From: a phage
Direction: 5' to 3' (one strand)
DNA: 64,000 nucleotides
Assembly: GCA_012490745.1 (NCBI GenBank)
Contig: GCA_012490745.1_3925.1
A model generated the notes under the pieces. That model had not been told where the DNA came from. It did no database searches and saw only the letters and a list, made by a program, of their open reading frames with translations. Positions 42,953 through 43,759 of the stretch are shown here, piece after piece (within the stretch, counting starts at the first letter, position 1; every line of letters starts with the position of its first letter). The translations under genes and the position numbers were made by a program.

Positions 42953-43025
42953 CAGAAGACCAATTACAGCAAACTTAATCTTATTCATCTGAAGGTAAAT
43001 CGGACAAAGAAGAGATTTGGTCTGG
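42953..43025 (+). ncRNA. structured element copy 1 (CAGAAGACC box ... GGTCTGG)
   Basis: 5' box CAGAAGACCAATTACAGCAAA, 3' ATTTGGTCTGG; ends can pair; between tRNA-Glu and tRNA-Met. Confidence 0.4.
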
Positions 43026-43036
43026 TCATTAAGAAT

Positions 43037-43113
43037 TGCGGGTATAGAGAAAGGGCGTCTCACATGTCTCATTAGCATGGTATCGGCAGGTTCGACTCCT
43101 GCACCCGCCTCCA
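43037..43113 (+). tRNA. tRNA-Met (CAT); position 1:72 unpaired, possibly initiator-like
   Basis: Anticodon stem CATGT/GCATG, loop CTCATTA; T-arm GCAGG-TTCGACT-CCTGC; acceptor TGCGGGT/ACCCGCC with 1-72 mismatch. Confidence 0.6.
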
Positions 43114-43119
43114 ATTTTG

Positions 43120-43179
43120 CAGAAGACCGTATTCAGCAACAAAATACTTTTTGCGGATAAAAGAAAAAACACGGTCTGG
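43120..43179 (+). ncRNA. structured element copy 2
   Basis: CAGAAGACCGTATTCAGCAAC ... ACGGTCTGG; pairing nucleotides co-vary relative to copy 1. Confidence 0.4.
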
Positions 43180-43190
43180 CAATGTATTAA

Positions 43191-43267
43191 GGTTAGGAAG
43201 CACATAAGGTATGTGCGGTCGCCTGTTAAGCGAATGGCACAGGGTTCGAATCCCTGACTAACCGCCA
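43191..43267 (+). tRNA. tRNA-Asn (GTT)
   Basis: Anticodon loop CTGTTAA; T-arm CAGGG-TTCGAAT-CCCTG; CCA encoded. Confidence 0.75.
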
Positions 43268-43276
43268 AATTTAAAT

Positions 43277-43364
43277 GTGTCGTTATCCCGTAGATGGTAG
43301 CGGTGGGGACTGTAAATCCCTTGTCATTGAGACTCGGTAGGTTCGACTCCTACACGGCACACCA
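43277..43364 (+). tRNA. tRNA-Tyr (GTA), long variable arm
   Basis: Anticodon stem-loop GGGGA-CTGTAAA-TCCCT; variable arm about 14 nt; T-arm GTAGG-TTCGACT-CCTAC. Confidence 0.7.
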
Positions 43365-43370
43365 AATAAA

Positions 43371-43448
43371 GGTTATGTAGTTTAATCTGGTTAAAATACT
43401 CCCCTGTCACGGGAGATGATGAGGGTTCAAATCCCTTCGTAACCGCCA
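43371..43448 (+). tRNA. tRNA-Asp (GTC)
   Basis: Anticodon stem CTCCC/GGGAG, loop CTGTCAC; T-loop TTCAAAT; CCA. Confidence 0.8.
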
Positions 43449-43535
43449 AATTATAATAAGTATTTCAAAATGATGTTTGAGAGGGCTATTTTAGCCCCTC
43501 CCTTAAAGAGTTCTTACGAGTATTCTTTAAAGGAG

Positions 43536-43614
43536 CAGAAGACCAAATTCAGCAAGTACGTATGATATTTTCAAGCCAATTTAATTTTGAAAAAATTTAT
43601 AAAACTTGGTCTGG
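43536..43614 (+). ncRNA. structured element copy 3
   Basis: CAGAAGACCAAATTCAGCAAG ... CTTGGTCTGG. Confidence 0.4.
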
Positions 43615-43627
43615 CTCAACAATTTTA

Positions 43628-43759
43628 CAGAAGACCGTTTACAGCAAAACTTAAACAATCTATTTCTCCGGTAAAGAAAAGGCGAAGGTTCGATTCCTTC
43701 ACTCGGCAGATGTCGAGTTGGTGTAATGGTAGCACTTAAGATGATAAACAACGGTCTGG
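43628..43759 (+). ncRNA. structured element copy 4 enclosing a tRNA-like module
   Basis: CAGAAGACCGTTTACAGCAAAA ... AACGGTCTGG (perfect 8-bp end pairing); interior has T-arm GAAGG-TTCGATT-CCTTC, then ACTCGGC and GTCGAGT (complementary, acceptor-like) and a D-arm-like TGGTGTAATGGTAGCAC. Confidence 0.45.

What the first reader, a model, noticed from the sequence alone, without database searches (positions are those of the whole stretch)
42953..43759. Family of conserved stem-forming elements between tRNA genes, with compensatory base changes
Four copies share the 5' box CAGAAGACC + 3 variable nt + TT(A)CAGCAA and end with the complement of those 3 nt + GGTCTGG. The variable nucleotides co-vary to keep pairing (AAT/ATT, GTA/AC, AAA/CTT, GTT/AAC), which argues for selection on a stem rather than on sequence. 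Interiors are 45-110 nt and AT-rich. A fifth, divergent element (45469-45556) has nested inverted repeats and a related CTGAAGACCGT box. Candidates: small structured RNAs (possibly Y-RNA-like), RNase III-type processing signals for the polycistronic tRNA precursor, or target sites of a mobile element.
Basis: seen in the sequence. Interest (0 to 1): 0.75.

Follow-up and report, generated by a model that had tools for sequence, protein, structure and literature searches.

The report
Phage Y-RNA-like genes beside Ro60-like gene
Four small structured RNA genes sit among the tRNA genes of this Felix O1-like phage, and they are most likely the RNA partners ("Y RNAs") of the Ro60-like ring protein encoded just upstream; the same gene-plus-RNA pairing, with a signature not described before, recurs in very different phages.

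Summary
Four + strand elements share one architecture: E1 42950-43028, E2 43117-43182, E3 43533-43617, E4 43625-43762. Each has a covarying 4-bp outer helix, an AGA/G internal loop, an inner helix AGACC+NN(N), a single-stranded UNCAGCAA motif, a variable interior, and the closing strand followed by G.

E4's interior is a circularly permuted tRNA-like module, the layout of bacterial YrlA Y RNAs. It runs variable-arm hairpin, T arm, closed 7-bp acceptor stem, D arm.

In 69 distant phage loci carrying this gene, "7-bp helix + 3 nt + CAGCAA ... helix' + G" occurs 80 times on the gene strand and 7 times on the other. Most copies lie within 500 nt of the gene. A covariance model gave 72 hits, all on the gene strand, and also found arrays in held-out Listeria, Staphylococcus and Campylobacter phages. 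In the 14 kb examined around its syntenic tRNA array, a related phage has neither the gene nor the RNAs.

Best reading: these are Y-RNA-like partner RNAs of a divergent phage Ro60 family. Binding is inferred, not shown. The canonical CGAA motif is absent, and no Rfam family matches. The fifth element (45469-45556) is not a member.

The parts
41203..42618 (+). Ro60-like protein gene (471 aa; DUF2828 + DUF7788; helical-repeat ring plus vWA domain with an intact MIDAS motif), the proposed protein partner
41134..41163 (+). promoter-like site upstream of the Ro60-like gene (consensus match only)
   Evidence: TTGACA-18-TAAAGT, 10 of 12. A promoter is annotated at the equivalent place in NC_028825.
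42637..42757 (+). two promoter-like sites (42637-42665, 42728-42757) ahead of the tRNA/Y-like RNA array (consensus matches only)
   Evidence: The first tRNA starts at 42784.
42950..43028 (+). E1, short Y-like RNA. Outer helix 42950-53/43025-28; loop AGA 42954-56 / G 43024; inner helix 42957-63/43017-23; CAGCAA 42967-72; interior 5-bp/7-nt-loop hairpin. Lies between tRNA-Glu and tRNA-Met.
   Evidence: R1 48.2 bits, but it is a training sequence. Ortholog variants keep pairing.
43117..43182 (+). E2, short Y-like RNA. Outer helix 43117-20/43179-82; inner helix 43124-30/43171-77; CAGCAA 43134-39; hairpin CUUUU-UGCGGAU-AAAAG. Lies between tRNA-Met and tRNA-Asn.
   Evidence: (z -2.9). The outer helix shows UUGC/GCAA versus UUAC/GUAA among orthologs.
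43533..43617 (+). E3, short Y-like RNA. Outer helix 43533-36/43614-17; inner helix 43540-46/43606-12; CAGCAA 43550-55; 8-bp interior hairpin.
43625..43762 (+). E4, long tRNA-like Y-like RNA (YrlA-type). Outer helix 43625-28/43759-62; inner helix 43632-39/43750-57; CAGCAA 43642-47; V hairpin 43663-79; T arm 43684-43700 (loop UUCGAUU); closed 7-bp acceptor-like stem 43701-18; U8-like UG 43719-20; D arm 43721-35 (loop AAUGGUA).
   Evidence: Rfam gives a partial tRNA match at 43651-43701. R1 19 bits, E 0.063; it was not in the training set and is the best non-training hit in the window. In orthologs the T and D arms are invariant while the acceptor stem has compensatory changes at 3 pairs.

Best explanation
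E1-E4 are genes for small non-coding RNAs of the Y RNA kind, the RNA partners of the Ro60-like ring protein encoded 335 nt upstream.

They are transcribed with the tRNA array from the promoter-like sites at about 42637 and 42728. Processing of the flanking tRNAs would release them as discrete RNAs of about 66-138 nt. This step is inferred.

Each RNA closes into a basal module: an outer helix, a 3x1 purine internal loop, a 7-8-bp inner helix whose second pair is always G-C, and single-stranded U-U/A-A-CAGCAA. This is the only part conserved across phages, so it is the likely protein-docking site, by analogy with the conserved stem that Ro60 binds in Y RNAs. This step is also inferred.

The variable interior is the effector module. 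E1-E3 carry a small hairpin (5 bp with a 7-nt loop in E1 and E2, 8 bp in E3). E4 carries a permuted tRNA mimic (V, T, closed acceptor, D).

Shown here: the RNA architecture and its covariation, the Ro60 fold of the protein, and the strand-specific, position-specific co-occurrence of gene and RNAs across distant phages. Not shown: expression, RNA ends, binding, and function.
For: 1. Four copies against a chance expectation of 0.18.

2. Selection at the RNA level on the + strand. Among orthologs, the E2 outer helix switches UUGC/GCAA to UUAC/GUAA. All six one-sided helix variants give G.U wobble pairs. Ortholog lengths differ by amounts that are not multiples of 3, so the elements are not coding.

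3. E4 has the YrlA layout: V, T, closed acceptor stem, D. Its T and D arms are invariant, and its 7-bp acceptor stem is kept through compensatory changes at 3 pairs. This is the pattern Chen et al. 2014 describe for YrlA (PMC4201824).

5. Co-occurrence. In 69 non-Felix loci with the gene, the fixed-register pattern occurs 80 times on the gene strand (47 loci) and 7 times on the opposite strand. Control anagram motifs average 4.3 hits. Of the 80, 58 lie within 500 nt of the gene.

6. Model R1 gave 72 hits at E<=0.1, all on the gene strand.

7. Lineages not used for training also carry tandem arrays next to the gene: Listeria List-36 (3), Staphylococcus S-CoN_Ph16 (2 at E<=0.0032, plus a third weak hit at E 0.37) and Campylobacter CP81 (1).

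8. Yersinia P778, Mycobacterium Lolly9 and Aeromonas 4_4572 show the same elements with entirely different helix sequences. P778 and Lolly9 each also have one tRNA-like member.

9. Negative control. In the 14 kb examined around its syntenic tRNA array, Ounavirinae phage Arno162 has no Ro-like gene and no R1 hit.

10. Literature. The Bas63 (Felixounavirus) gp130 is Ro60-like and counters Ppl, and its authors guessed that Y RNAs hide among the tRNA genes (10.1101/2024.10.10.617714). In Listeria phage CKA15, three very abundant unannotated RNAs lie within 2 kb upstream of the homolog (PMC12282133).
Against: - There are no expression, RNA-end or binding data for this phage.
- The motif that defines canonical bacterial Y RNAs (GNCGAAN0-1G / CGAA) is absent. 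Pfam TROVE does not match the protein, sequence searches of the PDB find nothing, and no Rfam family matches the RNAs. The Y RNA assignment therefore rests on protein fold, RNA architecture and synteny.
- Bas63 gp130 alone, expressed from a plasmid or from T7, counters Ppl. At least that phenotype does not need the phage RNAs.
- About a third of loci with the gene gave no hit within +/-4 kb, including the Vibrio schizoT4-like phages.
- Pairing of the inner helix in my cross-phage set is guaranteed by how the set was selected. Its statistical weight comes from the strand and motif controls, not from the pair counts.
- E4 scores only 19 bits against the short-form model.
Confidence: 0.8

Rival explanations
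1. The elements are processing signals (RNase III, RNase E or similar) for the polycistronic tRNA precursor, with no function once excised.
For: E1 and E2 fit snugly between tRNAs (3-9 nt spacers), and each element has a terminal helix that a double-strand RNase could cut.
Against: - The same elements occur with no flanking tRNAs: five to seven in tandem upstream of the gene in Aeromonas 4_4572, three downstream in Lolly9, and two to three downstream in a Staphylococcus phage.
- They follow the Ro-like gene rather than the tRNAs. In the 14 kb examined, Arno162 has the same tRNA array with neither gene nor elements.
- A 7-8-bp helix with an invariant single-stranded CAGCAA and a tRNA-like insert is not an RNase III-type substrate.
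- The window holds separate long AU-rich hairpins (43498-43536, 44351-44385, 44968-45057) that fit a processing role better.
Confidence: 0.05
2. They are cis-acting binding sites or decoys on the mRNA or precursor that regulate the Ro-like gene or titrate the protein, not independent small RNAs.
For: In many phages the elements lie directly in the gene's 5' or 3' flank on the same strand, as autoregulatory sites would.
Against: - In this window they are separated from the gene by promoter-like sites and two tRNAs, and E1 and E2 lie between tRNA genes (E3 and E4 do not), so tRNA maturation would excise those two.
- Copies are multiple and independently closed, and some carry elaborate tRNA-like modules with compensatory changes, which a mere binding site does not need.
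Confidence: 0.07
3. They are decayed or rearranged tRNA pseudogenes, or permuted tRNA genes that mature into working tRNAs.
For: E4 has T, D and acceptor-like arms with canonical loop sequences. An IMG/VR relative (L062 6329-6428) holds an unpermuted D, anticodon and T core that scores 55.7 bits with the Rfam tRNA model.
Against: - E1-E3 have no tRNA features.
- E4 has no anticodon arm, because that position continues into the basal helix. Its acceptor stem is closed by a loop, and it has no CCA.
- The arms are conserved and the stem is compensated across orthologs, which is not decay.
- Bacterial hosts are not known to have the circularisation pathway that permuted tRNA genes need (general knowledge).
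Confidence: 0.04
4. They are repeats left by, or targets of, a mobile element or homing endonuclease.
For: HNH and homing endonuclease genes are inserted in this tRNA region in several relatives. The copies have inverted-repeat termini.
Against: - The inverted termini differ between copies and covary, while the conserved part is an internal single-stranded motif.
- All 72 model hits lie on one strand.
- The family spans phages of Actinobacteria, Firmicutes, Campylobacter and Proteobacteria and is always next to one gene.
Confidence: 0.02

Closest known systems
Bacterial YrlA/YrlB Y RNAs with Rsr (Ro60 ortholog): Salmonella, M. smegmatis and TROVE-encoding phages (Chen et al. 2014, PMC4201824)
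   Same: - RNAs are encoded within 2 kb of a Ro60-fold gene on the same strand.
- At least two RNAs occur per locus.
- One RNA has a tRNA-like module in the order V, T, closed acceptor stem, D, with invariant T and D loops and a covarying acceptor stem. The others are short hairpin-type RNAs.
- The 5' and 3' ends close into a stem that carries the conserved element.
- A 7-bp acceptor-like stem, as in M. smegmatis YrlA, the one that RNase P cleaves.
   Different: - The conserved 5' motif is (U)UA-CAGCAA after the helix, not GNCGAAN0-1G.
- The protein belongs to DUF2828/DUF7788, not Pfam TROVE.
- There are four copies interleaved with a tRNA array.
- Some relatives carry an unpermuted tRNA-like core.
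- No binding or modification data exist.
Thermus phage phiLo Ro60 with Yrl1/Yrl2 (PMC12135203; PDB 9KOP, 9L5Y)
   Same: - Small stem / internal loop / stem RNAs next to the gene.
- A proposed role in redirecting host RNA enzymes (PNPase).
   Different: - phiLo Yrls were found through the CGAA motif, which is required for binding there and is absent here.
- The phiLo protein is a canonical TROVE protein.
- No tRNA-like module is reported for Yrl1 or Yrl2.
Bas63 (Felixounavirus) gp130, the Ro60-like anti-Ppl protein (bioRxiv 10.1101/2024.10.10.617714)
   Different: The authors guessed that some annotated tRNA genes are the Y RNAs. The elements found here lie between the tRNA genes and are unannotated, or are overlaid by a spurious minus-strand ORF. 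gp130 alone was enough for the anti-Ppl effect.
Metazoan Ro60-Y RNA RNPs
   Same: A ring protein made of helical repeats plus a vWA/MIDAS domain. Small RNAs whose 5' and 3' ends form a stem with a conserved interrupted helix, with a variable upper module thought to recruit other factors.
   Different: The sequence motif differs (GGUCCGA bulged helix versus CAGCAA). The upper module here is tRNA-like. The RNAs are made by bacterial transcription within a tRNA operon rather than by Pol III.
Small stable RNAs of unknown function in phage tRNA clusters (T4 species 1 and 2 RNAs; from my own knowledge, not checked here)
   Same: Non-tRNA stable RNAs encoded inside a phage tRNA gene cluster and released by tRNA-processing enzymes.
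   Different: I know of no Ro-like partner or CAGCAA motif for the T4 RNAs. No comparison was run.

Membership tests
Ro60 / Rsr protein family (the partner protein) | Ring of helical (HEAT-like, TROVE) repeats closed by a C-terminal vWA domain, matched over the full length | tested here: met
   [not shown]
Ro60 / Rsr protein family (the partner protein) | MIDAS motif (DxSxS...T...D) in the vWA domain | tested here: met
   D279, S281, S283, T349 and D381 are invariant in 38 homologs.
Ro60 / Rsr protein family (the partner protein) | Sequence-level membership (Pfam TROVE PF05731) | tested here: not met
   Pfam gives only DUF2828 and DUF7788, with no TROVE hit at E<=0.1. phmmer and hmmsearch against PDB sequences find no Ro60.
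Bacterial Y RNA, YrlA type | Encoded within about 2 kb of the Ro60 gene on the same strand | tested here: met
   E1 starts 332 nt and E4 starts 1007 nt after the stop codon, both on the + strand. Of 80 elements in other phages, 58 lie within 500 nt of the gene.
Bacterial Y RNA, YrlA type | tRNA-like domain: conserved T and D stem-loops separated by a non-conserved closed 'acceptor' stem-loop, often preceded by a V stem-loop | tested here: met
   E4 has V 43663-79, T 43684-700 (UUCGAUU), AS 43701-18 and D 43721-35 (AAUGGUA). T and D are invariant, and AS shows compensatory changes at 3 pairs in 9 orthologs.
Bacterial Y RNA, YrlA type | GNCGAAN0-1G (CGAA) motif near the 5' end, the proposed Ro-binding site | tested here: not met
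   No CGAA occurs in the 5' parts of E1-E4. The nearest resemblance is GCAGAAG in E2 and E3, and other phages of the family do not conserve it. The conserved motif is CAGCAA.
Bacterial Y RNA, YrlA type | 5' and 3' ends pair into a stem that closes the RNA | tested here: met
   Inner and outer helices are present. Changes among orthologs are compensatory or wobble-only.
Bacterial Y RNA, YrlA type | Physically bound by the Ro60 ortholog; tRNA-type modifications; stable accumulation | not testable with these tools
   This needs RIP or EMSA, Northern blots and modification mapping.
Bacterial Y RNA, YrlB / Yrn2 type (short partner RNAs) | A second, shorter RNA at the same locus that shares the binding motif and folds as a hairpin without a full tRNA-like domain | tested here: met
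   E1-E3 are 66-85 nt and share the basal module with E4. A 5-bp/7-nt-loop hairpin is enriched across the family: 72 of 124 elements versus 27 +/- 4 in shuffles.
Rfam families (any described RNA family) | Covariance-model match at or near the gathering score | tested here: not met
   Only tRNA and tmRNA families match in the window and in 14 related loci.
Permuted tRNA genes (functional) | A complete anticodon arm and an acceptor end that can be opened to give a 3' CCA | tested here: not met
   The anticodon position continues into the basal helix, the acceptor stem is closed by the AGAU loop, and there is no CCA.

The most novel reading that the evidence does not exclude
A large phage family of Ro60-like proteins (found in 710 of 50,697 phage records) uses a previously unrecognised modular RNA system. 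A universal docking module (helix + CAGCAA) carries interchangeable cargo modules that mimic tRNAs or anticodon stem-loops: a permuted T/acceptor/D module, an unpermuted D/anticodon/T module with a Lys-like UUU loop, or a bare 5-bp/7-nt-loop hairpin. The resulting RNPs would act as decoys or tethers against host tRNA-directed or RNA-directed defence and decay enzymes. Each RNA in an array would address a different host target.
Probability: 0.2. Interest if true: 0.85.

Novelty: new variant of a known kind. Interest (0 to 1): 0.66.

Why it matters
Ro60-Y RNA particles are known from animals, some bacteria and a few phages, but Y RNA partners have only been found by homology to known ones (the CGAA motif, TROVE-annotated genomes).

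This work defines the RNA partners of a second, sequence-divergent Ro60-like family. That family is common in phages of Proteobacteria, Firmicutes, Actinobacteria and Campylobacter, and the definition comes with a simple searchable signature and a covariance model.

It gives the Felixounavirus anti-defence protein (Bas63 gp130, anti-Ppl) concrete candidate RNA cofactors. It offers an explanation for the very abundant unannotated RNAs near the homolog in a Listeria phage. It corrects genome annotation, since spurious ORFs are called over these RNAs.

It also makes testable a long-standing question about Y RNAs: whether their variable modules specify different partners. These phages carry arrays of 3-7 RNAs with one docking module and different cargo.

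Tried and rejected
- **Rfam, at gathering and at E<=10:** no Y RNA or other family matches the elements. There were only weak chance-level hits to Dictyostelium Class I RNA (24 and 19.7 bits, threshold 41.5).
- **Sequence searches of the protein:** against PDB sequences (single sequence and 38-sequence profile), NCBIfam and Pfam TROVE, nothing useful turned up. Only structure comparison revealed Ro60.
- **First detector (6-bp stem, spacer 0-4):** too permissive. It made about 20 hits per strand in the window, so I replaced it with a fixed-register 7-bp rule with controls.
- **blastn 'distant' with the region:** it was swamped by tRNA hits and useless for finding distant elements.
- **Outer helix as a general family feature:** rejected. 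Only 52% of cells pair outside the Felix/P778 group.
- **Fifth element as a divergent member:** rejected.
- **E4 as a functional permuted tRNA:** rejected, because it has no anticodon arm.
- **Protein-coding reading of the minus-strand ORF 43581-43856** (annotated in RefSeq as AVT61_gp131): rejected. The ORF contains the antisense-T-arm peptide 'GIEPSP', ortholog lengths differ by non-multiples of 3, and substitutions preserve wobble pairs on the + strand.
- **Chen et al. 2014 supplement:** the list of 22 phages is not held, and two Wolin-lab reviews are not held either. I therefore could not check whether any DUF2828-type phage RNA was already listed.
- **tmRNA lead at 44084-44389:** not pursued beyond a note.
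Full report
**Source and setting.** The window comes from a Felix O1-like myovirus. It is 98.5% identical over 3.4 kb to Escherichia phages EcoM2 and vB_EcoM_AYO145A (genus Felixounavirus). The finding lies at the start of the phage's tRNA array, which holds 25 ARAGORN tRNAs on the + strand from 42784 to 47733.

**Observation.** Four elements share the box AGAAGACC-NNN-UNCAGCAA and end in NN(N)GGUCUGG.
- The 19-nt box matches exactly four times even with 2 mismatches allowed. Shuffles give 0.18 on average, and none of 100 reached 4.
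- The refined anatomy, from outside in, is:
  - a 4-bp outer helix that differs in every copy yet always pairs (UGAC/GUCA, UUGC/GCAA, GAGC/GCUC, UUAC/GUAA);
  - a fixed internal loop (5' AGA, 3' G);
  - an inner helix AGACC plus 2-3 variable pairs;
  - a 3-nt spacer and the single-stranded CAGCAA;
  - a variable interior;
  - the closing strand.
- Coordinates: E1 42950-43028, E2 43117-43182, E3 43533-43617, E4 43625-43762.
Two or three nucleotides covary, and the window shows only the types AA/UU and GU(U)/(A)AC.

**The elements are RNA, on the + strand, and not coding.** Among 19 Felixounavirus and Mooglevirus loci:
- The E2 outer helix exists as UUGC/GCAA or as UUAC/GUAA, a two-sided compensatory change.
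- All six one-sided helix variants produce G.U wobble pairs: AGGCC, AGACCGA, AGACU, AGGCCGU, GAGC/GUUC and GGGC/GCUC. These would be C.A mismatches on the other strand.
- Ortholog lengths vary by non-multiples of three. For example, E1 is 59-67 nt and E4 is 117-126 nt by the measure.
- RefSeq calls a minus-strand 'hypothetical protein' over E3 and E4. The corresponding window ORF 43581-43856 contains 'GIEPSP', the antisense translation of a T arm, and is spurious.

**E4 is tRNA-like in the YrlA manner.** After CAGCAA, its interior reads as follows:
- a hairpin UUUCU-CCGGUAA-AGAAA at the variable-arm position;
- a T arm GAAGG-UUCGAUU-CCUUC;
- a 7-bp acceptor-like stem closed by a loop (ACUCGGC-AGAU-GUCGAGU);
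- UG;
- a D arm GUGU-AAUGGUA-GCAC.

In nine distinct orthologs the T and D arms never change. The acceptor-like stem occurs in three versions (ACUCGGC/GUCGAGU, ACACGUU/GGCGUGU, ACCCUUC/GAAGGGU), with compensatory changes at three pairs. Chen et al. 2014 describe this exact pattern for bacterial YrlA: T and D nearly invariant, an 'AS' stem-loop between them that is not conserved in sequence, and a 'V' stem-loop upstream (PMC4201824). E4 cannot be a working tRNA. It has no anticodon arm, its acceptor stem is closed, and it has no CCA.

**The neighbouring protein has a Ro60 fold.**
- ORF 41203-42618 (471 aa) ends 335 nt before E1's box. Pfam gives DUF2828 and DUF7788, with no TROVE hit. PHROG 850 names it 'RNA-binding protein'. 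Sequence searches of the PDB find nothing.
- An AlphaFold model from 38 homologs has pLDDT 89 and pTM 0.88.
- All of the top eight Foldseek hits in the PDB are Ro60 proteins: Xenopus and human Ro60, Thermus phage phiLo Ro60, and D. radiodurans Rsr. Their E-values are 4e-8 to 7e-7 over the full length, and the next hits are isolated vWA domains at E>=1.7e-3.
- The MIDAS residues are invariant.
- tblastn finds the family in 710 of 50,697 phage records. Cluster-L-type mycobacteriophage homologs (33% identity, E 1e-77) are annotated 'Ro-like RNA binding protein'.

**Gene and RNAs travel together across distant phages.**
- *Yersinia phage P778* (protein 53% identical) has three elements among its first tRNAs. 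Their helices are GGACUGU/ACAGUCC, GGAUUC/GAAUCC and GGACUC/GAGUCC, their loops are ACA or AUA opposite A, and UNCAGCAA is unchanged. The third has a T arm.
- *Mycobacterium phage Lolly9* has three elements just downstream of its Ro-like gene (GUGGACNNN-N-ACAGCAA...NNNGUCCAG). The middle one carries a T arm, a closed 7-bp acceptor stem and a D arm.
- *Aeromonas phage 4_4572* has five to seven short elements in tandem upstream of the gene, with no tRNAs between them.
- *Pattern count over 80 IMG/VR loci and the GenBank loci*. The fixed-register pattern (7-bp helix, 3 nt, CAGCAA, 12-170 nt, complementary strand, G) occurs 80 times on the gene's strand in 47 of the 69 non-Felix loci. It occurs 7 times on the opposite strand. 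The 59 control anagram motifs average 4.3 hits, with a maximum of 23 for the overlapping ACAGCA.
- *Position and length.* Of the 80, 58 lie within 500 nt of the gene, 35 downstream and 23 upstream. Lengths are bimodal, at 50-70 nt and about 80-140 nt. Many long elements contain a GG-UUCGAAU-CC T arm.
- *Interior hairpin.* A 5-bp hairpin with a 7-nt loop starts 6-17 nt after CAGCAA in 72 of 124 unique elements. Shuffled interiors give 27 +/- 4.
- *Covariance model.* Model R1 was built from 40 short elements (A4). In that alignment pair 2 of the helix is G-C in 40 of 40, pair 1 is A-U in 30 of 40, and the other pairs vary freely. R1 finds E4, which was not in the training set, as the best non-training hit in the window (19 bits, E 0.063), and nothing else there. 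Over the 69 loci it gives 72 hits at E<=0.1, all on the gene strand, in 45 loci at E<=0.01.
- *Held-out lineages* (protein 29-37% identical). Listeria phage List-36 has three tandem elements 70-345 nt upstream of the gene. A Staphylococcus phage has two at E<=0.0032, plus a third weak hit (E 0.37), directly downstream. Campylobacter phage CP81 has one directly upstream, overlapping an annotated 45-aa ORF.
- *Negative control.* Pectobacterium phage Arno162 is an Ounavirinae relative with the same DUF5681-type ORF followed by the same tRNA array. In the 14 kb examined it has no Ro-like gene (best tblastn E 0.011, wrong strand) and no model hit better than 12 bits.

A caveat applies to these counts. 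In my cross-phage set the inner helix pairs by construction, so the 99.6% pairing is not independent evidence. The strand, motif and absence controls carry the weight, together with the ortholog comparisons, which required no pairing.

**What it is and how it probably works.** The best-supported reading is that E1-E4 are Y-RNA-like partner RNAs of a divergent phage Ro60.
- The basal module (helix, purine loop, CAGCAA) is the only feature conserved from actinophages to enterobacterial phages. It is therefore the likely docking site, as the conserved stem is in known Y RNAs.
- The interiors are cargo modules. One is tRNA-like (E4, YrlA-like) and three are short (E1-E3, YrlB-like).
- Relatives show two tRNA-like layouts. 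One is the permuted T/acceptor/D layout. The other is an unpermuted D/anticodon/T core (L062 6329-6428, with a Lys-like CUUUUAA loop, Rfam tRNA 55.7 bits) in which the CAGCAA helix replaces the acceptor stem.
- The elements lie in one transcription unit with the tRNAs, downstream of promoter-like sites at 42637 and 42728 (consensus matches only). E1 and E2 lie between tRNA genes, so tRNA maturation should release them as discrete RNAs (inferred).
- By analogy with Rsr-YrlA-PNPase and phiLo Ro60-Yrl-PNPase (PMC4201824, PMC12135203), the RNP would redirect or block host RNA enzymes.

**Relevant published data.**
- gp130 alone works from a plasmid or from T7. That phenotype therefore does not require these RNAs, which is a point against an obligatory RNP.
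- In Listeria phage CKA15 the homolog is found in virions. Three extremely abundant unannotated transcripts lie within 2 kb upstream of it (PMC12282133). This is consistent with the three elements I find in List-36, but I did not map them onto each other.

**Comparison with what is known.** The system works like Ro60-Y RNA. As a member of the described YrlA family it fails one defining feature, the GNCGAAN0-1G / CGAA motif, and the protein fails sequence-level TROVE membership. No Rfam 15 family matches. No paper in the searchable library describes the RNA motif or links DUF2828 to specific RNAs. I therefore file it as a new variant of a known kind. I could not see the supplementary phage list of Chen et al. 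2014, whose search was restricted to TROVE-annotated genomes.

**Fifth element.** Region 45469-45556 is a stable irregular hairpin (z -3.8). It is almost invariant among relatives, so covariation cannot be assessed. It shares GAAGACCGU with E2 and E4 but has no CAGCAA, a 10-nt apical loop, and no model hit. It is either a relic or an unrelated structure, and it is not a family member.

Noticed in passing
window 43761-43905 (+): A 145-nt region is closed by a near-perfect stem of about 24 bp (AAUUAUCUUUGUAGAUAAG.../...CUUAUCUACAAAGAUAAUU) around a branched interior. MFE is -48 kcal/mol and z is -7.2. It lies between E4 and tRNA-Lys and matches no Rfam family. It may be another structured RNA or a double-strand RNase site.
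   Followed up: partly
window 43498-43536, 44351-44385, 44968-45057 (+): Long AU-rich hairpins built on CUUUAAAGA.../...UCUUUAAAG-like arms recur in the tRNA spacers (z -3.6, -4.5, -4.9). A similar one precedes the third element in Yersinia phage P778. They fit RNase III-type processing sites better than E1-E4 do.
   Followed up: partly
window 44236-44271 (+); L003 6882-7630: A tmRNA-tag-like reading frame, GCA AAC GAC AAT GTT TTT CTG GCA GTA GCT TGA TAG (ANDNVFLAVA**, compare E. coli ANDENYALAA), lies after a strong promoter-like site at 44158-44186. ARAGORN calls a permuted tmRNA with this tag in Citrobacter phage Moogle but not in the window. Rfam tmRNA_permuted scores 28.8 bits and tmRNA 15.4 bits, both below threshold. 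It may be a phage tmRNA-like gene.
   Followed up: partly
window 44616-44695 (+) and 44391-44469 (+): ARAGORN missed two probable non-canonical tRNAs. One is Trp-like, with a CUCCAAA loop (anticodon CCA) and an odd D region; Rfam tRNA-Sec gives it 23 bits, and Trp is otherwise absent from the array. The other is Arg(UCU)-like with a long extra region (Rfam tRNA 31.7 bits), and it is called tRNA-Arg in Moogle and Sf16.
   Followed up: partly
L015 about 6459-6560 (IMG/VR Felixounavirus contig): In one relative, E4 is truncated. Its T arm is fused to the T arm and 3' end of the downstream tRNA-Lys (GAAGGUUCGAUUCCCUCCACUUCUACCA). The rest of E4 and the long hairpin are deleted, apparently by recombination between T arms.
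   Followed up: no
L062 6329-6428 (IMG/VR contig): One family member has an unpermuted tRNA-like core (D arm, anticodon arm with a Lys-like CUUUUAA loop, T arm; Rfam tRNA 55.7 bits, model positions 5-66), and the CAGCAA helix replaces its acceptor stem. The next element (6439-6532) has the permuted layout.
   Followed up: partly
L089 (Listeria phage List-36) 6075-8021: A metal-dependent phosphohydrolase gene and an RtcB-type 'tRNA splicing ligase' gene lie 0.6-1.4 kb downstream of the Ro-like gene and its three Y-like elements. This echoes the Salmonella rsr-yrlBA-rtcBA RNA-repair operon. Aeromonas phage 4_4572 has RNA ligase 2 about 3.7 kb downstream.
   Followed up: no
window 43581-43856 (-); L090 3903-4040; NC_028825 27195-27452: Public annotations place 'hypothetical protein' ORFs over these RNA elements: AVT61_gp131 on the minus strand over E3 and E4, and CP81 ORF140 over its element. 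These look like annotation artefacts.
   Followed up: partly
window 40750-41121 (+): A DUF5681 gene sits immediately upstream of the Ro-like gene in Felixounavirus, Mooglevirus and Yersinia P778. A same-sized ORF sits at the equivalent position in Arno162, which lacks the Ro-like gene (its family was not checked). The DUF5681 gene therefore looks like synteny rather than part of the Ro/Y module.
   Followed up: no
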